Source: Trichinella spiralis
Lineage: Eukaryota
Direction: 5' to 3'
Assembly: GCF_000181795.1 (NCBI RefSeq)
Contig: NW_003526940.1
Span: 3,385,703 to 3,433,721, forward strand
DNA: 48,019 nucleotides
Under the pieces are notes generated by a model. It was not told the origin of the DNA. It was given only the letters and a program-made list of their open reading frames with translations, and did no database searches. The position numbers and the translations under genes are program-made. Below are positions 2,841 to 44,229 of the stretch, one piece after another (the stretch's first letter is position 1; every line of letters begins with the position of its first letter).

Positions 2841-4955
2841 CAAACGACTTCTATAATTCGAGTATGCTAATGAGATTTAAAATAATGATAATAGTAATTA
2901 ATAAATTGTTGCATTTAGTATGCTTCGACAGACGCTCTTACTCGAATTTTAAATTGTGTTGAAATGGTCAAGAAATCAAATTTCAATAGTGATCCATTCT
3001 TGAAAAATTTTGGTTTTGCAATTAAAGGCGAACCAATGATTTTTAGTGGATGAGTTTAGCCTGCGCCTAAGTTGGAATATGGTGAAGGAAATGGAGACGT
3101 GTAAATAATAATTGTTGAAATCACTACTTTTGGAAAAATATTTGTTTCACAATTGGTTTTACATTTCTAGAAAATTATTCTTACACCAAAAGATGGAGCA
3201 TGGAATTCGAATGAATTTAAATTTTTTGAATCTGCTCATTGTGAATCATTCGCATTTGTATCGTTTCTACCACCAAATAAAGTATCAATGTTACAGTGAG
3301 TATTGAAAAATGTGTAAATAAGTCAAATCAGCTTTGTTGTTTGCATGCCTCATTTTTAGGGAATTTTGTCTGCAAATTGTCAAAACATGTCGTAGTACAG
3401 GAATTCAAATGCCAGACAATCCAAAAATTTTTTGAACAAGCGGGAAGAAATGATAGTGTAGAAATGATATTCAAACGTATTGCTGACAAATGTGACAGAG
3501 ATGGCATGAAATGTGATTTGGTGTTTGTTGCGTTGTTTTCATCCGAACAATACGGTAATAATTATTTTGTAGTTTTATGATGAAATTTATATTATTAATG
3601 TTAAATGTATTTTTACCATTTTAAGGTCAAGTGAAATCTTGTGGCAATATCACTTTTGGATTGGTCACTCAGTGTTTATTACCGAAAACAATAAGTGATG
3701 TAGCAGTAAAGAAGAGTTATTCGACGATGTTAAATATTGCGATGAAAATAAATATGAAAATTGGTGGCATCAATGCAAAATTACTGAAAGATGAAGTGTA
3801 AGATATTGAATTCAAGAATGCGTTTGAAAAAGTTTAAAATGAAAGATTTTTCTTTAGTTTAAATAATTATTTGTATAAAAATAATACATTGGTAATTGGT
3901 GTGGATGTGGTTCATCCATCTGCTGTAGAGACGTATTTACCATCAGTTGCTGCGGTGCGTATTCATTGCTTTGTTATTCAAAATTATTCGAGAAATATTT
4001 TTGATTTCAAGGTTGTTGGAAACGTGGATGTAACAGTTACAAAATTTAAAGCATCGGTGAAAATCCAATCAGCTAGGCAAGAAGTGATCACCGATTTTGT
4101 TGATCAGTTTTCTGAACGAATAATGGAATACTCTGATGTTAATTGTTCAGCACTGAAAAACATTATTGTTTTTCGAGATGGAATATCGAAAGGTCAATTC
4201 AAGCAGGTGAAATTGTGTTCTATCATTAATTAAAGCAAAGTAAGAATTCATTTTTTAAACAGGTTTTGGAAGAAGAATTGCTTGCTCTTCGTCGGGTGTG
4301 CAAAAAATTTGCATCAAATTACAGGCCGTTAATAACGTTTATTGTAGTTGAAAAGCGACATTATGCTCGATTTGTTTGTTATGATAAAGCTGCAGCACGA
4401 GGACGGGGGAAAAACATCCCTGTTGGTACTGTCATCGATAGAGTAGTGACATCTCTTGATGAATATGATTTCTTTTTGTGCAGTCATCATGGAATTCAAG
4501 TATGACTTTGTGAAATGTTCTGAATATTTATTATTATTTTCATTTCAATTGCAGGGAACTAGTAGACCGACGCGATATTATGTGCTGTTTGATGAAAGCA
4601 ACTTGGATGTGAATGCAATGCAGTTGATCGCATACTATTTATGCCATATATATGGTAGATATGATCGTTCTGTTAGTATACCAGTACCGGTATATTTTGC
4701 ACATTTAGTTTGCGCCCGTGCTCCTTATCATTTTCTTGCTGCATTGTAAGTTGGATTAATTAACTTATTTAAAAATGAATGAATTATTGAATTTTATTTT
4801 TTAGCAATTCTGTTCAAGTGAAAAGGTTATCTGATGAAAACAGTAACAGTAGTAGTAGTAGTAGTTCCAGCAGTAATTCTGAATCTGTGAAAACAAAATT
4901 GGCTAACATAATTGCACTGCACAGCAGAGTTGAAAAAATCATGTACTACGCATAA
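2841..4955 (+). pseudogene. Argonaute (AGO clade) 3' half, L2-MID-PIWI, multi-exon, copy 1
   Basis: Spliced motifs QTTSIIR, DPFLKNFG, TQC, MKINMKIGGIN, GVDVVHP, FRDGIS, DFFLCSHHGIQGTSRPTRY, SIPVPVYFAHL, MYYA*. In-frame TGA 3051-3053 and TAG 3057-3059 fall in the GRVLPAP motif. Confidence 0.9.
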
Positions 4956-6416
4956 CGTGCAGCGACGGCCGATGCTTAATATATTCTAGTGCTTAGTTAT
5001 TTAGTGCTTATTTAAAAACAGTAAATATATTTGTGTATGTGTTTACCTCTAGATCATAGCTTTTTCATTCTGCATATTGTTGTGGGTGAAAAAATAAACA
5101 AACNNNNNNNNNNGAAAACAAAATTGGCTAACATAATTGCACTGCACAGCAGAGTTGAAAAAATCATGTACTACGCATAACGTGCAGCGACGGCCGATGC
5201 TTAATATATTCTAGTGCTTAGTTATTTAGTGCTTATTTAAAAACAGTAAATATATTTGTGTATGTGTTTACCTCTAGATCATAGCTTTTCATTCTGCATA
5301 TTGTTGTGGTGAAAAATAACAAACAATATACATGATGTGATGAAGAAGGTTCAATATATATGCTATATATTTATGATATTTTATAAATTCATTATACTAT
5401 TCATAGTGAATTTATAATATTGGGGTGAAGATGTTCGTTTGCATGAAAAACCAAATGAGAACGAAACCAAATATTAATATATACATAAGTAAGTGAAGAG
5501 TTGTTGGCAAAGATTGAATGTGAAATATTTTGAAACTGGATTCGAAATTTTCTTTCATGTTTCTGGCATTTAAATTACCTCGCCATAGATGTGCACATTT
5601 AGGGCTTCAGTAGGGCTCTTTGAATTGTTTCTGGCTTCCATTTTACATAAACCGCCAATTACACTTCAAAAGAGCAATGTTTATTAAGAATAATGTCTAT
5701 TCAAAAGTTCTATTTCTGAAACCACTTGCATCTTCATTTTACCTCAATGATAGACTGAGTTACAATTTCCAACATGTGCACATTTGGTGAAACATTACTT
5801 CCTCTTTCGATCAACACACTGATCGGCTAAGTAAAGCGTAATTTTTTTTGAGGCTGGTCTCTCTTTAATCGTTGTTAACTTGAAACTGCCGCCCGACTAT
5901 TTCCGATTGTAATAAACACTGATGTTAAAGCAGCAGAAATTTGCAAACTATCATCTATCTCTCAGCTTTCAATACCAGCATTCATAAGTAAGAACATGAT
6001 GTGACACAGAGATACCAAAGCGGCTGATTTTTATTGGCAGCTTGTTTGCAAAACAACCAGTAGTCAAATGTCCAGTCTCTGATGCTTTATTGCAATTTCG
6101 CCCGCTAAACTTTGACCTCATTTTTCTGATTGGTTGTTCGCCGATGGCAGTAATTGGCAGTTCAATTAACCTACTTTATTAATTTATTAGATTTTGAAGT
6201 AGAATTATTGATCAAAAGTGCATAATCAATGAAATGGCATAAGTAAATCACCAACTACCGATCAAACCCGGTACATGCTATAAGTGAACGACCAATCACA
6301 CGGAGGGGGCAGAGTGGCAAAAATGGGAGCTGGTGAAATCAGATAACGCTATCTATGAAGCAGCCACTTTTTGTTGAATGTGCGCCATATTTTAATGAAA
6401 CTTCAANNNNNNNNNN

Positions 6417-6810
<394 letters not shown>

Positions 6811-10874: not shown

Positions 10875-12989
10875 CAAACGACTTCTATAATTCGAGTATG
10901 CTAATGAGATTTAAAATAATGATAATAGTAATTAATAAATTGTTGCATTTAGTATGCTTCGACAGACGCTCTTACTCGAATTTTAAATTGTGTTGAAATG
11001 GTCAAGAAATCAAATTTCAATAGTGATCCATTCTTGAAAAATTTTGGTTTTGCAATTAAAGGCGAACCAATGATTTTTAGTGGATGAGTTTAGCCTGCGC
11101 CTAAGTTGGAATATGGTGAAGGAAATGGAGGACGTGTAAATAATAATTGTTGAAATCACTACTTTTGGAAAAATATTTGTTTCACAATTGGTTTTACATT
11201 TCTAGAAAATTATTCTTACACCAAAAGATGGAGCATGGAATTCGAATGAATTTAAATTTTTTGAATCTGCTCATTGTGAATCATTCGCATTTGTATCGTT
11301 TCTACCACCAAATAAAGTATCAATGTTACAGTGAGTATTGAAAAATGTGTAAATAAGTCAAATCAGCTTTGTTGTTTGCATGCCTCATTTTTAGGGAATT
11401 TTGTCTGCAAATTGTCAAAACATGTCGTAGTACAGGAATTCAAATGCCAGACAATCCAAAAATTTTTGAACAAGCGGGAAGAAATGATAGTGTAGAAATG
11501 ATATTCAAACGTATTGCTGACAAATGTGACAGAGATGGCATGAAATGTGATTTGGTGTTTGTTGCGTTGTTTTCATCCGAACAATACGGTAATAATTATT
11601 TTGTAGTTTTATGATGAAATTTATATTATTAATGTTGAATGTATTTTTACCATTTTAAGGTCAAGTGAAATCTTGTGGCAATATCACTTTTAGATTGGTC
11701 ACTCAGTGTTTATTACCGAAAACAATAAGTGATGTAGCAGTAAAGAAGAGTTATTCGACGATGTTAAATATTGCGATGAAAATAAATATGAAAATTGGTG
11801 GCATCAATGCAAAATTACTGAAAGATGAAGTGTAAGATATTGAATTCAAGAATGCGTTTGAAAAAGTTTAAAATGAAAGATTTTTCTTTAGTTTAAATAA
11901 TTATTTGTATAAAAATAATACATTGGTAATTGGTGTGGATGTGGTTCATCCATCTGCTGTAGAGACGTATTTACCATCAGTTGCTGCGGTGCGTATTCAT
12001 TGCTTTGTTATTCAAAATTATTCGAGAAATATTTTTGATTTCAAGGTTGTTGGAAACGTGGATGTAACTGTTACAAAATTTAAAGCATCGGTGAAAATCC
12101 AATCAGCTAGGCAAGAAGTGATCACCGATTTTGTTGATCAGTTTTCTGAACGAATAATGGAATACTCTGATGTTAATGGTTCAGCACTGAAAAACATTAT
12201 TGTTTTTCGAGATGGAATATCGAAAGGTCAATTCAAGCAGGTGAAATTGTGTTCTATCATTAATTAAAGCAAAGTAAGAATTCATTTTTTAAACAGGTTT
12301 TGGAAGAAGAATTGCTTGCTCTTCGTCGGGTGTGCAAAAAATTTGCATCAAATTACAGGCCGTTAATAACGTTTATTGTGGTTCAAAAGCGACATCATGC
12401 TCGATTTGTTTGTTATGATAAAGCTGCAGCACGAGGACGGGGGAAAAACATCCCTGTTGGTACTGTTATCGATAGAGTAGTGACATCTCTTGATGAATAT
12501 GATTTCTTTTTGTGCAGTCATCATGGAATTCAAGTATGACTTTGTGAAATGTTTTGAATATTTATTATTATTTTCATTTCAATTGCAGGGAACTAGTAGA
12601 CCGACGCGATATTATGTGCTGTTTGATGAAAGCAACTTGGATGTGAATGCAATGCAGTTGATCGCATACTATTTATGCCATATATATGGTAGATGTGATC
12701 GTTCTGTTAGTATACCAGTACCGGTATATTTTGCACATTTAGTTTGCGCCCGTGCTCCTTATCATTTTCTTGCTGCATTGTAAGTTGGATTAATTAACTT
12801 ATTTAAAAATGAATGAATTATTGAATTTTATTTTTTAGCAATTCTGTTCAAGTGAAAAGGTTATCTGATGAAAACAGTAACAGTAGTAGTAGTAGTAGTT
12901 CCAGCAGTAATTCTGAATCTGTGAAAACAAAATTGGCTAACATAATTGCACTGCACAGCAGAGTTGAAAAAATCATGTACTACGCATAA
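10875..12989 (+). pseudogene. Argonaute (AGO clade) 3' half, L2-MID-PIWI, multi-exon, copy 2
   Basis: Same exons as copy 1, with stops TGA 11085-11087 and TAG 11091-11093. D-E-D-H positions are present (GVDV, RQEV, RDGI, AHL). Terminal stop TAA 12987-12989. Confidence 0.9.
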
Positions 12990-14671: not shown

Positions 14672-15530
14672 ATGGCTGAACGAAGTAAGTATTGTTGTTT
14701 CTTTGTGTAAAAGGTTGAATAGTATCGTCAATTGTGGTCTGATTTTTAATCTCTGAAAAAGCGGTGGCTTAATTGCCAACAATATTTGGCCAAAATCATG
14801 GACCGCATCTTATTCCAGCATTTCTTGAACAGTTTGTAATCGGTGAATTACTTGTAGGCAAAGAAGTGAAATCAATTTCTGATAATCTGTCCCAGTTACG
14901 TTTAGTAAGTGTTAGCTAATGTTTTATTTCATTATTTAGTATTGTTATTGTGGTTGTGGCTATTTTAGAAAGAATTAGTGAAACGTCCTGACTACGGGAC
15001 TGTTGGCATGCCGATAAAATTAGCTTGCAATTATTTTCCACTGGTAAAACTGCAGACCGGTGATTTTGTTGTTCACAGATATCACATCCTCATACAACAT
15101 CCTCGTTTAAATTTGAATAGGTTCGATTTTAATTTGTTGTCAAGTTTTATCATAATTTTAATCAGTTTATTTTTTCTATTTTAGTATGGCTTCAAGGGCC
15201 ATATTTTGGGCATATGTAGTGAAGCGTTTAGATATTTTTGGTGATCCATTTAAATTAGTATACGATGGGAAGAGTACTTTGTATACAGTTGAAAAATTGC
15301 GTTTGAATCAAGTCGCTGAAGAAGCAGTTACGATTCGTTTTAGAAATTTATTCTTTGATTTTATAAATTGCAATTTTAAAATATGAATATTTTTATATTT
15401 TAAGGATAAATTTTTTTTCAAAACTGTTCGAGAAAATAAAGAAACAGAAGTGTCTATATTGATTAAACCCACTGGTCTGGCTCGCTTGGATTTCCGAAAT
15501 GCAGAAGCCGGTTCCCTGGATGGACGATGA
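14672..15530 (+). CDS. Argonaute 5' fragment (N domain only), 5 exons, 159-aa open frame; truncated gene or pseudogene
   Basis: Exons 14672-14684, 14858-14904, 14969-15120, 15185-15326 and 15405-15530 splice GT-AG in frame. Motifs KRPDYGTVGMPIKLACNYF and VYDGKSTLYT. Ends at TGA 15528-15530. Confidence 0.75.
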
Positions 15531-17013: not shown

Positions 17014-17409
17014 CTACGGTGATGATTTAGTCTCTTTTGACAGATCTTCAGCTTTCCTTGGAAAAAGATTTGCATTGATGTTCGGAAGAACACCACCTTG
17101 AGCAATAGTTACACCCCGGAGGAACTCGCTCAACTCTTCATCATTTCGTATTGCCAACTGTAGATGCCGTGGAGTGATGCGAGTCTTCTTGTTATCACGG
17201 GCGGCGTTTCCAGCCAATTCGAGTACTTCAGCGGTCAAGTATTCCATGACAGCGGCAAGATAGACAGGACCTCCAGCACCAATACGCTCAGCGTAATTTC
17301 CCTTTTTCAAAAGACGATGAATGCGACCAACAGGGAACTGGAGTCCAGCTCGACTAGATCGAGTTTTTGCTTTTCCTTTAACTTTTCCACCTTTCACGCG
17401 ACCAGACAT
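17014..17409 (-). CDS. Histone H2A, divergent, intronless, 131 aa
   Basis: MSGRVKGGK...[15 protein letters not shown]...[13 protein letters not shown] at 17409-17407; followed by a stem-loop. Confidence 0.97.
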
Positions 17410-17673: not shown

Positions 17674-18033
17674 ATGACTCCGAAAGGTGTAAAGAAAGCA
17701 GGTCAACTCCAGAAAGTGGCCAAGTCTGGTGATCGCAGACGACGTCGTTTGAGGAAAGAATCGTTCGCTGGTTACATCTACAAGGTCTTGAAGCAAGTTC
17801 ATGCTGATACTGGCATCAGCAGCAGGGCGATGTCAATCATGAACAGTTTTGTGAATGACATTTTTGATCGCCTTGCCGCTGAGGCGAGTCGTCTTGCCCA
17901 ATACAATCAACGCCACACGATCACTTCACGGGAAATTCAAACGGCTGTCCGTTTACTTTTGCCTGGTGAACTTTGCAAACATGCGGTCAGCGAAGGGACC
18001 AAAGCTGTTAGCAAGTACAACAGTGGAAGGTAA
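17674..18033 (+). CDS. Histone H2B, divergent, intronless, 119 aa
   Basis: [29 protein letters not shown]...[26 protein letters not shown]; followed by a stem-loop. Confidence 0.97.
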
Positions 18034-18091: not shown

Positions 18092-18312
18092 ACATTAATT
18101 TTTATTCAAATCGATGAAATTCAATAAATAAAAACTATACTTTTGTTAAAATTTATTTTTCACTTACATAAAGTAAATTTTTACCAGTTAACCTAATGTT
18201 TAATCATTAATGGGATACTGTAAACTAATAAGATTGTTTATAAAACATTTGAAATTATTGTTAAAAACTGTGTAAGCTGAAAGGGGCAAGGAGAAACCTC
18301 CATCGCAAATCG

Positions 18313-18426
18313 TTTCCCGCCTTTTTCCCCAGCCAATCATTTTTGAAAACTCAGTTCACCACTTACAGTTAAAGGTCAATTGCAGTTATGTATATAAAGG
18401 AGTGAACATTTATTTTGCTCTCAGTT
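18313..18426 (+). promoter_or_regulatory. H3 promoter: E2F-like site, CCAAT box, TATA box, initiator
   Basis: TTTCCCGC 18313-18320, AGCCAATCA 18331-18339, TATATAAA 18391-18398, and TCAGTT 18421-18426 about 30 nt after TATA. Confidence 0.7.
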
Positions 18427-18444
18427 GAGAGTTTTCGAGTAAAA

Positions 18445-18855
18445 ATGGCGCGTACTAAGCAAACCGCTCGCAAAAGTACTGGTGGAAAAGCCCCACGTAA
18501 GCAGTTGGCCACTAAAGCGGCTCGGATGATTGCCACCAATGCTGATAGAGTAAAGAAACTACGTCGTTATCGTCCAGGGACAGTGGCTCTTCGTGAAATT
18601 CGGCGTTATCAAAAAAGTACAGAACTGTTGATCAGAAAGCTGCCATTCCAGCGTTTGGTTCGGGAAGTTGCTCAAGATTACAAAACTGAGTTGCGATTCC
18701 AATCGTCAGCAGTTTTCGCTTTACAAGAAGCGGCTGAAGCTTACCTGGTTGGCCTGTTCGAAGACACAAACTTGTGTGCTATTCACGCAAAACGTGTCAC
18801 CATTATGCCAAAGGATGTTCAGTTGGCTCGTCGTATACGGGGTGAACGCGCCTAA
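18445..18855 (+). CDS. Histone H3 variant, full length (136 aa), with K27M, S28I, P30T, A31N, T32A, G33D, G34R, P38L, H39R
   Basis: [45 protein letters not shown]...; M27 = ATG 18526-18528 and R34 = AGA 18547-18549. The fold differs only by a few changes (I74V, F78Y, D81E, M90F, I124V; A96). Confidence 0.97.
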
Positions 18856-18887
18856 CTTTGTTATGCCTATTTTGTTCATAATCCAAC

Positions 18888-18903
18888 GGTCCTTTTCAGG
18901 ACC
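18888..18903 (+). terminator. Histone 3' stem-loop (H3 copy 2)
   Basis: CCAAC-GGTCCT-TTTC-AGGACC-AC. Confidence 0.95.
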
Positions 18904-19814
18904 ACTTCAATCTGTTTTCATCAGCTACATTCCATTGATTAAGCATCATTTTTCTGAGAAATTAAATATTTAAATGAATTCAAATTCTAAGGTTGTTCAA
19001 AATAATGATGATCATTTTTACAAACTTTCCATAAAAATATTGTTTTTGAAACAATTTCTGTTATTGTCATTTTATTGTACCACATTAAACCAATACAGAA
19101 TGAGGGTAAAACCTGTGCTGAGAATAATCAGGTTGATGATTTTCAAGTTCAATACAACTGCGCGCAAGACAGTTGAGTATAACAAACTGAGTCGCTGGCC
19201 CTTCTCAGGCTTAAAAAATTTGCTTAAATTGAGCTGTAATTTGAGAACAAGAAAACACACAGAAGCTGAGATTTATTCAGGCATGACCAATACAAATCAA
19301 AAGCACAGACAGTCAGACACAATCAAAGCAATCATTCATTCACACGCCACCAACAACACGATCACATTGCTCAGTCATGTTCACGCGTAAAAACGTGACT
19401 CTGACGTCACAACTAACCAAACAACCTCAAGTTACGGTAGCGGATTCAGATTATCAGGCTTGAGCGAAAGAGGTTTTAACAACCTGTATCTGCCTACGTG
19501 TTTACAATAAATTTCATTGGTTGTCAGTCTGATGCGTTCTATTTGTTAATTTTTCATTTTCTATCAGTGATCAGCTTTCAGATTCAATTCAAAGCATTAA
19601 TACTTTCAATTCAATATTAATTATTATATATTGAAAAATTGTAAGGTTTTTAAAATTAGAAATCTAATTAAATTTTACTGCAGTTGAGTAAAATAATAAA
19701 TTTATATGCAAATAGAAGGAATAAAACAATTAACTACCAGAAATTGGCAGATTCTATGTGACACAAGCAAATGTTCTGGTTAATGCTTTGCTGTCTAATA
19801 TCTCAACATACAAC

Positions 19815-21559: not shown

Positions 21560-23635
21560 TGTGACGGCCACCGTGAAATTGTACCTGCATATCACGCCCA
21601 CATTTTTGTAGGACATCGACAGTAGGGGACGCCTGATCGAAAGCCGGTGATCGTGAGCGGTGCGGCTGTTATTCCGTCTTTCTTATTTTGTCATTGTTCT
21701 TTTCGCTGTTCTGTGCTTTGTCTAATAAACTCTTAACCTCTCGCGATGGTGTGAAATCACGTAGCATCGACGAACTCTACAAATGGCGAGCGCGGCAGGA
21801 TCGATGGGACGGAATGGATTAGCCCGTCAGAGATACTTACCATGTCATTGAACGTGGAGACCTGGTTCGAACACTTGGAAAAGTACTTCTGTGCCTCCCG
21901 TATAGCCCCGGAGAGACGAGCTTCCCTTTTTCAGTATCATACTGATGAGGAGGTGCCGGGCGTAATGAGGGCTATGCACGTCCAGGTAACGGACGATTAC
22001 GATGGACTGAAATCAGCCCTGTTGGAAGCCTTCGGTGTGCGCAGCGGTTAAGAGAGGTTCTCCGCTGAGTTTTTCCGGCGTTAACAGCAACGGGGTGAAA
22101 GCGTGCGGATTTATGCTAGTCACTCGCGCTGGCTGTTCACGAAGGCGTTTACCGGACTGAGTGGTACGCCGCCAAGACCCTGCTGTAACAATTTAAAGCA
22201 GGACGTATAGTTTAACGGATGCGATCGATGTTACAGCCCGGGAAGAGCGCATTTGGACAGGGCTCACCGCGCTCAAGTAGAGCGTCTCTTCAGTCAAAGC
22301 AGACGCTGACCAGGAAGACCTGCAGCCAGCGGTCGACGTCACAGAGGCAATAGCTGCCCCGGTAACGACGCGAAAGGAAGTTGGAGAAGAACTGGCGGAA
22401 GTGGCGCGGCAGTTGAAGCAGCTGCTGATGACGGACATAACTGCGGCTGCAAAGAGAGCGACTCCCCAGCAGCGACGCAGGCAGGAGAAGAAAGACCGCA
22501 GAACGTGTTGGACATGCGGAAGAACGGGCCACATCAGTAGGGTCTGCCAAGCTTCCCCCCTCCTTGACGACCGAACGTCCAGGGGAAGCAGTACTGCCTG
22601 AACCTTTAACGCCGTTGACACACGATGCCCTGAGATTGAAATACTGACTGTGGAAGGCTCTGTGGGAGATGTGCGATACAGCGTGCTCATGGACACTGGG
22701 TCCGCGGTAACCCGAGCGGACGGAAAATTTATGCGGGACTCGGAGACCCTGTGGGACGTCATTCGCACCGGAGACGCCAAGCCAGGGCGGTGGTCCCCAA
22801 CGCGGATCGCCCACTACCAGCGAACGCAGGTGGAATCTCTCCTGCTCGAAATGTTGAGGCGAGACGTTGTGGAGCCGTCGAGCAGCCCCTGGGCGTGGCC
22901 AATTTGTTGGTCGAGAGGTACATCGCGGTCAAGGTCGCTCATTTGAAGCGTCGGTGGTGATGGAGATGTGCCTCTTGTTCTGCACCAGGAAGACGCGATT
23001 CTCTGCATACCACCCGCAAGGGAATGGACAAGCGGAGAGGTTCATGTGAACGCTCCTCGACATGCTGTCCATCATGTTCGATGGGAACCGGCACCAGTGG
23101 GACGACATGCAGCCGTTTGTCATGCTGGCGTACAACAGCAACGTTCACGAGAGCACGGGGATGACGCATGCTATCGCCATGTATGGCGGAGAGCCGCGGC
23201 TACCGTTGGACGTGCACATTGGGAACCCGCAGGAGCAAGAAACCCAAAGGCTGCCGGAATACATGCGGAAAACCTGAGAGCGCATCGACCGTGTGCACGA
23301 GCTCGTGAAGGGCCACCTGTAAACGCAGCAGCGTCGACAGAAGTGCCTGTACGACCGCCATGCAAATGAGACGCATTTCCGCCAGAACGACTTTGTGTGG
23401 TTGACCTTGCCAAGAAGACGGAAGCTCGACCTCGGCTGGGAAGAGCCCTACATGATAATGTACGTAATGGGGTCACAAACATTCCGGGTGCGTCACCAGG
23501 AGCAAAAGTGCCGCTCACTGGTGGAACACTCTGACCGGATGAAGCGGTACTACACCAGAGAGTTCGCTGGAGAGCGGTCTTTCCGAGGCGGCACCACCAG
23601 GCAGCAGGAACATCACCCGTTTGCGGCGGAACGTA
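21560..23635 (+). mobile_element. Defective Ty3/Gypsy LTR retrotransposon (5' LTR, PBS, gag, protease, RT/RNaseH deleted, integrase C-part)
   Basis: LTR TG..CA 21560-21781 with AATAAA. PBS TGGCGAGCGCGGCAGGAT 21784-21801 (tRNA-Arg-like). Zinc knuckle CWTCGRTGHISRVC, protease LMDTGS, RT start VVEPSSSPWA, integrase YHPQGNGQAERF and LAYNSNVHESTG. Stops and frameshifts throughout. Confidence 0.92.
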
Positions 23636-26073: not shown

Positions 26074-26722
26074 AGTAAAGTATCAATGTTACAGTGAGTA
26101 TTGAAAAATGTGTAAATAAGTCAAATCAGCTTTGTTGTTTGCATGCCTCATTTTTAGGGAATTTTGTCTGCAAATTGTCAAAACATGTCGTAGTACAGGA
26201 ATTCAAATGCCAGACAATCCAAAAATTTTTGAACAAGCGGGAAGAAATGATAGTGTAGAAATGATATTCAAACGTATTGCTGACAAATGTGACAGAGATG
26301 GCATGAAATGTGATTTGGTGTTTGTTGCGTTGTTTTCATCCGAACAATACGGTAATAATTATTTTGTAGTTTTATGATGAAATTTATATTATTAATGTTG
26401 AATGTATTTTTACCATTTTAAGGTCAAGTGAAATCTTGTGGCAATATCACTTTTGGATTGGTCACTCAGTGTTTATTACCGAAAACAATAAGTGATGTAG
26501 CAGTAAAGAAGAGTTATTCGACGATGTTAAATATTGCGATGAAAATAAATATGAAAATTGGTGGCATCAATGCAAAATTACTGAAAGATGAAGTGTAAGA
26601 TATTGAATTCAAGAATGCGTTTGAAAAAGTTTAAAATGAAAGATTTTTCTTTAGTTTAAATAATTATTTGTATAAAAATAATACATTGGTAATTGGTGTG
26701 GGATGTTGGTTTCATCCATCTG
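26074..26722 (+). pseudogene. Argonaute MID/PIWI-start fragment, copy 3, 5'-truncated at the integrase junction
   Basis: Near-identical to 11314-11956; ends at a gap. Confidence 0.9.
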
Positions 26723-38395: not shown

Positions 38396-39886
38396 TGTTT
38401 CTTTTGCTCCTGTTCACCAGAGTTATTGTTTTCCTTCGTATATTTTATTTAAATAAAAAATTAAAAATCTGCAATATTATTTACAAATCAAAAAAATTTA
38501 GTATTATATATTTGGTGAAAATTGTAAACTTTCTATTTTTACAACTGAACGAAACCGACTAGTGCGTTGGTGAGCACTTAAATTGCTATCTGTTTTCATT
38601 TCCATTTGCAACCTTTCAACGAGCAATTGGCATATAAAATGGAGAAGAAGGCACGTCTTAGAAAAGGAAGTGCTGATGAAATGAATCCCAACCCCGCAAT
38701 ATATGATGAAGAAGCCTCTGTAGCGTCCGCTGAGCTTTCTCCATCCGGGCATTTTCCGGTTTTCAAGCGGTTGCGAGCCACAATGTTTANNNNNNNNNNT
38801 TAAACCCGTCTTAAGTCACCCAACGGTAGCGTTTCCTGATAGCATATGCTGAATCAGGGTGTCCATCACACCCCGTAGTGCCTGTTTCAAGCAGTCTAGC
38901 ACTCGTATCAATTTCCCGTACCGGAAGGAAAGCGGTAGCCAGGAACATTCTTATCTTTCTTCTTGTTCCTTCTTCTGTTCGATATTGTGTTTTCAGTCCC
39001 AGCTCACCGACTTTCCTATGTATTGCCTGGCATAAGTGGAACTAGTAGCCCTGTAGCCGATTATTCCGGAAGTAACCCTGAATCGCGGGTATCAGGGCTG
39101 TTACAAAATCACAGATAATGGTATCTGGATTAAGGCCGACCTTCAGAACTGCCGCTTTGTCTATTAAAGCTTGAAAAATATACCGGTACGTTCCAATGTC
39201 TTTACCCGTACATAAACAATAGACTGCTGGCACCAGCTTGCTCGCTACAATGGCATGTATGGTAAATAGCTGTTGATACCATTTAGGTACAATCTTGAAT
39301 GTTCCATCCATCCCCCAGGTACGACAGGCTGCCAGCAGTCTAATGTTGGTACCCGTCGAAAATACCAGTATATGCCTGGAGTTACTTTGGCACAATAAAA
39401 CGTCTTCCGCAGACTTCGTTGTTTTGAACTGATCTGGTATTACCAGATCATGGCGGTGTCCAGGAAGTCTGGGGACGCGCTTCACCCGATGTTTAAACAT
39501 TGTGGCTCGCAACCGCTTGAAAACCGGAAAATGCCCGGATGGAGAAAGCTCAGCGGACGCTACAGAGGCTTCTTCATCATATATTGCGGGGTTGGGATTC
39601 ATTTCATCAGCACTTCCTTTTCTAAGACGTGCCTTCTTCTCCATTTTATATGCCAATTGCTCGTTGAAAGGTTGCAAATGGAAATGAAAACAGATAGCAA
39701 TTTAAGTGCTCACCAACGCACTAGTCGGTTTCGTTCAGTTGTAAAAATAGAAAGTTTACAATTTTCACCAAATATATAATACTAAATTTTTTTGATTTGT
39801 AAATAATATTGCAGATTTTTAATTTTTTATTTAAATAAAATATACGAAGGAAAACAATAACTCTGGTGAACAGCAGCAAAAGAAAC
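38396..39886. repeat. Near-perfect ~390-bp inverted repeat (38396-38789 vs 39494-39886) across an N-gap
   Basis: ORFs 38606+ and 39677- encode identical peptides. Confidence 0.85.
38800..39680 (-). mobile_element. MULE transposase pseudogene, second subfamily, 5'-truncated
   Basis: WGMDGTFKIVPKWYQQLFTIH, IICDFVTAL; stop inside the CxxH motif (QGY*FHLCQA). Confidence 0.88.
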
Positions 39887-43468: not shown

Positions 43469-44229
43469 ATGTACTTTAAATTTCACCTTCTTCTGGTTCT
43501 TTCTGTTGCTGCTTTCTGCATTCAACTACACAAGAAGAGTAAGTAATTGATTAACTAATCTTACAGACTGGATAAAAATCACAAATTCAGTTTGTTGGTT
43601 CTTTTCTTCTTAATTAATCCGTTCTAATAAAATCTTTTATTTTAGAAATAAGAACTTAAAATAACGGTCTCATTTACAGAATGTCGCGTGCATACTGATT
43701 GTACTGGTCAGCAGATGTGTGTAGAAGGTAGCTGCTTACCCTCAGAACCAGCAGGAGGATTGTGTTCGAAAGACAATGACTGCCTTTTGTCAAAGGGGCA
43801 GGCTTGTCGTTATGGAATCTGCATGATACCATCAGGTAATTCTGCTTTAGACTTCATACATTTTAATATTTTTCATTTCAAATTGATATGATTGCCAGTA
43901 TAAAAAACAATCAATGAGGAAAAGATACGTCATTAAATTTACTTCAGAAAATTACAAGCAAAATTTTGCATATACTCATGTTTTCAGAACCTCCAAAGGA
44001 ATGCATTAAACATACTGATTGCAAAGGACAGACAATATGTGTAAATTACAAATGCAAACCGGCAGTCCCAACTGGCTTTTCATGCTTTGGAACAGGAATA
44101 TGTCCATACTGTGGAGCATGCAAATTTGACATATGTTGGACAGAGTTACCAACAGTTGATAAAAAGCCAATGAAAGATGTTGAAAATATAATCACATCAA
44201 AATCAAAAATTCTAAACGTAACGTCCTAA
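43469..44229 (+). CDS. Secreted cysteine-rich protein, 3 exons, 155 aa
   Basis: Exons 43469-43538, 43680-43835 and 43988-44229 join in frame (phase-1 GT-AG introns, TTTTCAG acceptor). Hydrophobic N-terminus MYFKFHLLLVLSVAAFC; four C-x5-C-x5/7-C-x4-C repeats. Confidence 0.85.

What the first reader, a model, noticed from the sequence alone, without database searches (positions are those of the whole stretch)
18445..18855. Genome-encoded histone H3 carrying both oncohistone substitutions K27M and G34R
Seen: residues 1-26 are canonical, then 27-39 read [13 protein letters not shown] instead of KSAPATGGVKKPH. M27 is ATG at 18526 and R34 is AGA at 18547. The ORF is full length with no indel, K4/K9/K14/K18/K23/K36/K37/K79 are kept, the fold is nearly canonical, and promoter and stem-loop are intact. 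The second copy shows the same codons at 6478-6502. Established: H3K27M dominantly inhibits the EZH2/PRC2 SET domain, mammalian EZHIP mimics it, and G34R blocks SETD2-type K36me3 in cis. Inference: nine changes packed into 13 residues beside a conserved fold fit an evolved variant better than random decay. It may be a natural PRC2 antagonist or a Polycomb-insensitive nucleosome component. P30T and S28I may weaken EZH2 binding, so inhibition is not assured.
Basis: partly seen in the sequence, partly recalled or inferred. Interest (0 to 1): 0.97.

Follow-up and report, generated by a model that had tools for sequence, protein, structure and literature searches.

The report
Trichinella histone H3 with natural K27M
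This genome, most likely that of the trichinosis worm Trichinella spiralis, carries an intact extra histone H3 gene, found in several copies in that species, with methionine in place of lysine 27 (the change that jams Polycomb gene silencing in childhood brain tumours); it likely builds germline chromatin that cannot take the K27 and K36 marks, but whether it is expressed or blocks Polycomb is untested.

Summary
Real, not a sequencing error. The ORF encodes a full-length H3 with M27 and R34; a contig of one public run matches it letter for letter, and seven T. spiralis protein records carry the same M27-R34 tail. It lies in a variant H2A-H2B-H3 trio with promoter motifs and stem-loops, inside a ~12 kb tandem unit. 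Against the K27-intact H3 of Trichinella, 8 of 11 changes fall in residues 27-39, while the fold is under purifying selection (rough dN/dS 0.05). Corrections: the window's second copy is frameshifted beside a gap and is no independent support; A32 is ancestral; P38L/H39R are peculiar to this copy; M27 was seen in no other Trichinella species. Best reading: a stage-restricted, probably germline, H3 blind to K27 and K36 methylation (0.5). R26 is kept, so trans-inhibition of PRC2 stays plausible (0.22 as the selected role); local drift in a weakly used array is 0.2. Expression and inhibition are unshown. Natural K27M H3s also occur in metagenomes (8 of 9 hits), and the scan noted viral ones before on other DNA. 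No paper on the worm gene turned up in my searches.

The parts
18445..18855 (+). Variant histone H3 ORF, 136 codons, intronless, M27/R34
   Evidence: PF00125, 154 bits; identical contig in run X1
18526..18564 (+). Rewritten tail segment, residues 27-39 (K27M, S28I, P30T, S31N, G33D, G34R, P38L, H39R against the Trichinella K27 H3); each change needs one base
18333..18398 (+). H3 promoter motifs: CCAAT (18333) and TATA-like box (18391)
   Evidence: consensus match only
18883..18928 (+). Histone mRNA 3' stem-loop of the H3 gene (hairpin 18888-18903)
   Evidence: RF00032, 26.6 bits, E 9.5e-05, below gathering score 34
17674..18033 (+). Variant H2B of the same unit, with an RRRRRLRK basic patch; stem-loop 18071-18116
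   Evidence: groups with T. spiralis and T. murrelli variant H2B at 100/97
17014..17409 (-). H2A of the same unit, divergently transcribed from H2B; stem-loop 16948-16992
6417..6810 (+). Second, 5'-truncated copy of the H3 at an assembly gap; frameshifted as assembled by ten one-base insertions next to the gap
14857..15527 (+). Argonaute 5' exons (N domain) upstream of the histone trio in the tandem unit
10962..12977 (+). Argonaute 3' exons (L2-MID-PIWI) downstream of the H3 in the tandem unit; further copies at 2925-5168 and 26174-26721

Best explanation
The gene is an intact, multi-copy variant histone H3 whose residues 27-39 are rewritten while the rest is conserved, and it likely works as a stage-restricted, probably germline, nucleosome part that cannot be methylated at position 27 and is predicted to escape K36 methylation as well. 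Shown: sequence, copy family, cluster context, conserved fold. Inferred steps: (1) it is transcribed like a replication-type histone (promoter motifs, stem-loop) together with its variant H2A and H2B, using H4 from elsewhere; (2) its H3-like chaperone motif (SAVF/SAVL at 87-90, not AAIG) leads to bulk deposition; (3) M27 removes K27 methylation and acetylation in cis, I28 removes the S28 phospho-site, and D33/R34 (plus L38 here, R37 in most copies) block SETD2-type K36 methylation; (4) where it is deposited, the K27/K36 domain memory is diluted, with some PRC2 damping as a likely side effect because R26 is kept; (5) expression has to be narrow, since broadly expressed K27M sterilises C. elegans.
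For: Family: M27-R34 tail under 7 T. spiralis accessions, one holding two tandem copies; window form in contigs of 2 of 4 runs laid. K27-intact H3 persists in T. spiralis (P0254) and in all 8 Trichinella H2B-H3 models that show the tail, so the variant is an addition. Constraint: residues 1-26 unchanged, 3 changes in 40-135; rough dN/dS 0.05 over codons 74-135, about 31 replacements expected under neutrality against 3 seen (resting counts). Clustering 2 of 200000. The unit predates the T. spiralis/T. murrelli split by its H2B (100/97). T. pseudospiralis has a separate duplicate that changes the same zone (G33S, K36N, K37R). G34 and P38 are needed for SETD2 binding (PMC5335568, passages). A sperm H3 altered near K27 is known in Arabidopsis (H3.10; PMC8015243, passage). 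K27M at 1/50 of H3 transcript level gives semidominant sterility in C. elegans (PMC6555832, passages).
Against: No transcript or peptide was shown. Germline restriction rests on analogy only. M27 was seen in no other species; the H3 beside the T. murrelli variant H2B is not in its gene model. In residues 27-39 rough dN (0.28-0.33) lies between half of and the full dS (0.22-0.45), so relaxed constraint fits as well as selection. Copies differ among themselves at 37-39 and 90, and one related contig carries a 2-base deletion near the start. The unit sits inside a broken-looking Argonaute in a repeat-rich region.
Confidence: 0.5

Rival explanations
1. Selected trans-acting PRC2 inhibitor: M27 enters the EZH2 lysine channel, R26 sets the register, and the worm uses the variant to lower H3K27me3 at one stage, as mammals use EZHIP.
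For: Residues 22-27 and A29 equal those of the K27M peptide; residues 22-30 are ordered in the human complex and R26 is worth 22-fold in binding (PMC4853476). An H3 with residues 24-41 swapped for EZHIP still lowered H3K27me2/3, and +1 is less critical (PMC6513997). Nematode PRC2 is sensitive to K27M. A figure legend places SUZ12 in T. spiralis among conserved PRC2 core parts (Snel bioRxiv). M27 recurs in unrelated H3s: 8 of 9 metagenome hits, sharing at most one other change with this gene; in one pair M27 is kept across 12 synonymous codon differences.
Against: No assay. Six to eight neighbours changed too, which an inhibitor would not need. M27 not seen outside T. spiralis. No control scan for other residues at 27, so enrichment of M is not shown. 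Trichinella EZH2 was not examined; PRC2 has been lost in another nematode (PMC11075575).
Confidence: 0.22
2. Locally relaxed or now silent array: a histone trio was caught in a 12 kb unit with a split Argonaute and amplified; the fold stayed constrained but the 27-39 stretch drifted, and M27 and R34 are chance outcomes.
For: All tail changes are single-base steps; M plus R expected in 3.5-6% of such double hits; tail dN near dS; copy-specific P38L, H39R, L90F; repeat-rich setting.
Against: K27 and G34 were invariant in 360 of 360 other tails parsed; none of about 13 expected replacements in residues 1-26; promoter motifs and three stem-loops intact; the same M27-R34 core in all 8 family tails seen.
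Confidence: 0.2
3. Host-directed effector: the larva releases the variant and it dampens PRC2 in the muscle cell that becomes the nurse cell.
For: Only the biology of the parasite (recalled: the larva lives inside and reprogrammes a muscle cell) and the predicted fit to mammalian EZH2.
Against: No signal peptide; ordinary replication-type histone architecture with partner histones; nurse-cell formation is genus-wide (recalled) while M27 was seen in one species.
Confidence: 0.04
4. Assembly or sequencing artefact.
For: The window has 10-N gaps and the second copy shows read-end errors. Some T. spiralis records may share the window's source (same longest-contig length).
Against: Identical contig in X1, one difference in X5; the same tail in a record from a differently sized contig and another accession series (KRY36453.1).
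Confidence: 0.02

Closest known systems
H3K27M oncohistone (somatic H3.1/H3.3 mutant; PMC4853476, PMC6555832)
   Same: Full-length H3 with R26-M27 and A29; H3-like chaperone motif.
   Different: Inherited, multi-copy gene family; S28I, P30T, S31N, G33D, G34R on the same tail; inhibition untested.
H3G34R oncohistone (PMC5335568)
   Same: R at 34 with K36 kept, predicted cis block of SETD2.
   Different: One of a cluster of changes, with D33 and L38 or R37; on an H3-like, not H3.3, backbone.
EZHIP / K27M-like peptide (PMC6513997, PMC12713659)
   Same: Genome-encoded R-M motif that could occupy the EZH2 active site.
   Different: EZHIP is a disordered non-histone protein of placental mammals with shown inhibition; this is a true histone in a nematode.
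Arabidopsis sperm H3.10 (PMC8015243, passage); H3.15 lacking K27 (recalled)
   Same: Natural H3 variant altered around K27 that escapes K27 methylation.
   Different: H3.10 is H3.3-like and, as recalled, keeps K27; here K27 itself is M and the K36 context is changed; germline expression not shown here.
Trichinella K27-type H2A-H2B-H3 unit (e.g. KRY31199, KRX42894, KRZ65705)
   Same: Same trio layout as far as the fused models show; H3 differs at only 9-11 of 135 residues; shared V74, Y78, S31/A32 background.
   Different: Those H3s keep KSAPSAGGVKKPH; the variant unit has a distinct H2B clade and E81, V124.
Unpublished natural K27M H3s in metagenomes (L121-L129) and in giant viruses (earlier scan notes)
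   Same: M27 after R26 in an H3 tail, several in full-length H3.
   Different: Separate origins by sequence; they keep G34 and mostly S28-A29-P30; none is shown to be animal.

Membership tests
Replication-dependent (canonical-type) histone H3 genes | Intronless gene clustered with other core histones | tested here: met
   H2A, H2B, H3 within 2 kb; no H4 in the window
Replication-dependent (canonical-type) histone H3 genes | 3' stem-loop | tested here: met
   RF00032 E 9.5e-05, under gathering score, hairpin identical to the H2B one that passes
Replication-dependent (canonical-type) histone H3 genes | H3-type chaperone motif at 87-90 (SAVM-like, not AAIG) | tested here: met
   SAVF here, SAVL in other copies and in the Trichinella K27 H3; motif definition from PMC6555832
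Replication-dependent (canonical-type) histone H3 genes | S-phase expression and incorporation into nucleosomes | not testable with these tools
   No raw RNA reads or proteomes available
K27M-type PRC2 inhibitors (oncohistone) | M at 27 with R at 26 | tested here: met
   role of R26 in PMC4853476
K27M-type PRC2 inhibitors (oncohistone) | Otherwise wild-type context at 22-30 | tested here: not met
   S28I and P30T; this lowers membership, not necessarily the working likeness
K27M-type PRC2 inhibitors (oncohistone) | A PRC2 with conserved active site in the same cell | tested here: inconclusive
   Only a figure legend naming SUZ12 in T. spiralis; EZH2 sequence not examined
K27M-type PRC2 inhibitors (oncohistone) | Dominant lowering of H3K27me3 | not testable with these tools
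   Needs an assay
EZHIP | Disordered non-histone protein with conserved KLP, placental mammals | tested here: not met
   Full histone fold; definition
Germline K27-evading H3 variants (H3.10 kind) | Changes around K27 that prevent its methylation | tested here: met
   K27 absent
Germline K27-evading H3 variants (H3.10 kind) | Sperm or germline-restricted expression | not testable with these tools
   No stage-resolved data obtained
Histone pseudogene | Broken frame or neutral evolution of the fold | tested here: not met
   Open frame; rough dN/dS 0.05 in the fold
Centromeric H3 (CenH3) | Divergent N-tail and lengthened loop 1 (recalled) | tested here: not met
   Residues 1-26 canonical, no indel against H3

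The most novel reading that the evidence does not exclude
T. spiralis has domesticated the K27M oncohistone: an amplified, inherited H3 family that the worm switches on at one stage to shut down its own PRC2 and wipe the K27/K36 memory, the first animal case of a true histone doing EZHIP's job, and one of several independent natural K27M histones across eukaryotes and their viruses.
Probability: 0.25. Interest if true: 0.92.

Novelty: new variant of a known kind. Interest (0 to 1): 0.74.

Why it matters
K27M is known as a tumour driver and sterilises C. elegans at low dose, so an animal that keeps and amplifies an intact K27M H3 needs an explanation. Either the worm uses it for programmed Polycomb shut-down, or the flanking changes detoxify it, or it is kept silent. 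The first two are directly testable with a peptide and a transgene, and the second would show how neighbouring residues neutralise K27M. Databases label the protein merely 'histone H3, embryonic'.

Tried and rejected
No whole genome was held, so copy number, EZH2 and H4 could not be searched genome-wide. Expression: the run search gave no RNA holder of more than 0.10 of the words; in the two runs guessed to be RNA (X15, X16; 6 of 6 laid records listed for each) no contig matches the window's H3 closely (nearest 11 of 191, 12 of 206 and 28 of 437 bases different), while H2A contigs with 3 differences are present; contigs drop rare variants and the run type is a guess, so this is no evidence of silence. 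Depth in X5 (107-122 for window-type pieces against 11-13 for paralogous pieces) and X1 (6.05 against 2.9 for a D81 H3 piece) hints at several copies but the tool warns that depth is no copy number. Codon 27 of the diverged H3 contigs in X5, X15 and X16 could not be read from the truncated table and stays unknown. Tail-focused search of longer proteins was crowded out by fused multi-H3 models; none of the 120 listed (of 2131) exceeded 80% identity. A short K27M pattern on viral contigs gave chance matches only (120 stretches; none of the 80 stored loci hit H3); a longer one gave 0. No solved structure of this tail among the 60 of 111 rows shown. Argonaute PAZ exons were not found in five intervals searched. 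A recalled red-algal K27M variant was not confirmed. No Trichinella entry in two PRC2 surveys. Brown 2014, Ardehali 2017, Jain 2020 and the H3.15 paper are not held. No structure or complex prediction was run: the fold is near-canonical and no EZH2 sequence was at hand. Rejected: artefact, CenH3, classical pseudogene, the second copy as independent support.

Full report
OBSERVATION. The ORF at 18445-18855 is a 136-codon intronless H3 with 27-39 = [16 protein letters not shown] at 18526 and AGA at 18547. CCAAT and TATA-like motifs lie upstream and a histone stem-loop downstream (26.6 bits, E 9.5e-05, below Rfam's cut-off; its hairpin is identical to the H2B one that passes). An H2A (17014-17409, minus) and an H2B (17674-18033) with their own stem-loops precede it; no H4 is in the window. 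It is frameshifted as assembled, probably through read-end errors (inference), and gives no independent support.

IS IT REAL. Yes. Of 4 runs laid, X1 has a contig with 0 differences over 18205-19100 and X5 one with 1 difference over 18332-18781 (contigs only, run type not on record, either may be the window's source). The nearest named protein is T. spiralis 'histone H3, embryonic', 97% identical. Its cluster has 13 members; five distinct sequences under seven accessions (six XP_ numbers and KRY36453.1, the last with two tandem copies) read [13 protein letters not shown]. The organism is therefore most likely T. spiralis (inference from homology). Some XP_ records may share the window's source; KRY36453.1 is from another accession series and contig size. 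P38L, H39R and L90F are peculiar to the window's form; most copies have K37R instead. Among 368 tails parsed from the 252 proteins fetched by then, 360 had K27 and G34 and 8 had M27 and R34, all 8 the window's own or T. spiralis (the set is biased to close H3 hits and to tails that fit my pattern).

WHERE IT CAME FROM. Searching with the H2B N-terminus among long, fused gene models gave 15 hits, 10 from Trichinella. Eight show the H3 tail and all eight keep K27: T. spiralis itself, T. britovi/murrelli, T6, T. patagoniensis, T. nativa, T. papuae and two T. pseudospiralis models; one model lacks that part and one has no H3. Three further members also keep K27. The genus H3 reads KSAPSAGGVKKPH, so A32 is ancestral and the variant has 8 tail changes, each one base away. 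In an H2B tree of 14 rows the window's H2B groups with the T. spiralis variant and a T. murrelli H2B at 100/97, apart from the K27-unit H2Bs: the unit is older than that species split, but the H3 beside the T. murrelli gene is not in its model, so the age of M27 is unknown. Contigs in X5 and X16 share the variant's E81 yet have P30 and H39, which suggests intermediate forms; their codon 27 could not be read, and the X5 one has a 2-base deletion near the start. T. pseudospiralis has a different duplicate, placed elsewhere in the tree (97/92), with G33S, K36N and K37R: the same zone changed twice in the genus.

SELECTION. Against the T. spiralis K27 H3 the window's protein has 11 changes, 8 within 13 residues (2 of 200000 uniform placements); the majority form has 9, 7 within 27-37 (2 of 200000). 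A rough estimate takes the D81-type contig of X1 (18 differences over 18665-18855) as the K27 gene, which is an assumption: 15 synonymous and 3 replacement differences give dS 0.45, dN 0.02, ratio 0.05; neutral decay along one of the two lineages would give about 31 replacements there and about 13 in residues 1-26, against 3 and 0. In 27-39 dN is 0.28-0.33, between half of and the whole dS. So the fold and the K4-R26 tail are being kept, while the 27-39 stretch is either released or driven; these data cannot tell which. If codons 27 and 34 each change by one base, M plus R results in 3.5-6% of cases (ancestral codons assumed), so the match to two oncohistones is notable but not overwhelming.

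SETTING. The trio lies in a tandem unit of about 12 kb (6417 corresponds to 18472), between the 5' exons (N domain) and the 3' exons (L2-MID-PIWI) of an Argonaute whose PAZ part was not found. A third partial unit follows after a GC-rich insertion. The region is rich in MULE-type repeats.

HOW IT MOST LIKELY WORKS. Shown: intact gene, copy family, partner histones, conserved fold. From the literature read: SETD2 needs G34 and P38 (PMC5335568, passages); in the PRC2-K27M structure residues 22-30 are ordered and R26 contributes 22-fold to binding (PMC4853476, passages and part 2 of 5); R at -1 is preferred, +1 is less critical, and an H3 whose residues 24-41 were replaced by EZHIP still lowered H3K27me2/3 (PMC6513997, passages); K27M in a C. 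elegans H3.3 expressed at 1/50 of the H3 level gives semidominant sterility, and an H3-like version also lowers H3K27me3 (PMC6555832, abstract and passages); C. elegans sperm keep nucleosomes carrying epigenetic memory (PMC6193031, abstract); Arabidopsis sperm H3.10 is altered near K27 and helps remove H3K27me3 (PMC8015243, passage). Inference: nucleosomes with this H3 cannot carry K27 marks and probably not K36me3, keep the K4 and K9 code, and may also trap PRC2. Because an unrestrained K27M would be costly, expression is probably confined to one stage; the arginine-rich H2B patch and the habit of fast-evolving amplified histones to be male-germline genes (recalled) point to the germline. I put 0.5 on a mark-blind stage-restricted variant, 0.22 on PRC2 inhibition as the selected role, 0.2 on local drift or silence, 0.04 on a host-directed role, 0.02 on artefact. 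That T. spiralis has PRC2 rests on one figure legend (Snel, bioRxiv 10.1101/2022.04.07.487461, passages; figure and supplements not seen); PRC2 was lost in Pristionchus pacificus (PMC11075575, passages), so this needs checking.

COMPARISON AND NOVELTY. It works, by prediction, like K27M or H3.10 and is not a member of EZHIP (PMC12713659, passages). It is not unique in nature: a degenerate scan of metagenome contigs gave 9 hits, 8 of them H3-derived with M27 (six full-length in three sequence types, one cut at a contig end, one tail-only) and one chance match; they share at most N31 with this gene's other changes, and one pair keeps M27 across 12 synonymous and 2 replacement codon differences. 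No control scan for other residues was possible. Earlier scan notes describe K27M tails and histones in giant viruses (unchecked AI notes); none concerns this genome or look-alike DNA beyond a generic histone match. In print I found nothing on the worm gene: Trichinella with H3K27M, K27, H3 variants or H3K27me3 (listings only), natural K27M variants and six of its accessions (0 papers). The library lacks most subscription papers and supplements were not searched, so proteome tables could list the protein.

VERDICT. Observation confirmed; interpretation partly supported. A real, constrained, multi-copy H3 variant with natural K27M in an animal, function untested. New variant of a known kind; interest 0.74.

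Noticed in passing
window 14857-15527, 10962-12977, 2925-5168, 26174-26721: The histone trio sits between the 5' and 3' exons of an Argonaute whose PAZ exons were not found; the whole ~12 kb unit is tandemly repeated. An unnamed relative (P0272) is a two-copy Argonaute model that also lacks PAZ in both copies.
   Followed up: partly
P0259, P0261, P0269, P0270 (T. pseudospiralis records): A separate H3 variant with A21V, G33S, K36N, K37R, I130M beside a divergent H2B: a natural K36-less H3 in several records.
   Followed up: partly
L121, L126 (547-951): Intronless divergent full-length H3 with M27 in two metagenome contigs 95% alike, next to a RING-like ORF; may be viral (inference).
   Followed up: partly
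L123, L128, L129: Intron-bearing eukaryotic H3 with M27 (MSAPNIGG), K14N and K79M-like changes (QDMMTD); at least two alleles; organism not identified.
   Followed up: partly
L122 547-633; L125 547-951; L127 547-708: H3 tail ending at M27 followed by unrelated sequence (L122); a full H3 with M27 and A34 that reads through its normal end (L125); an M27 H3 cut by the contig end (L127).
   Followed up: no
window 17014-17409 and 17674-18033: The partner H2A has a changed C-terminal tail ([11 protein letters not shown], one of the two ubiquitination-site lysines reads R by recalled numbering) and the H2B an arginine-rich N-terminal patch; neither exact sequence is in the protein collection.
   Followed up: partly
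window 21560-23630: GC-rich insertion interrupting the third tandem unit, with retrotransposon-like ORFs (by eye; no Pfam hit for the one ORF scanned).
   Followed up: no
window 26700-48019: Many related MULE-type transposon pieces (PF10551 at 39045-39644) and a small cysteine-rich DUF7107 ORF at 43978-44229.
   Followed up: no
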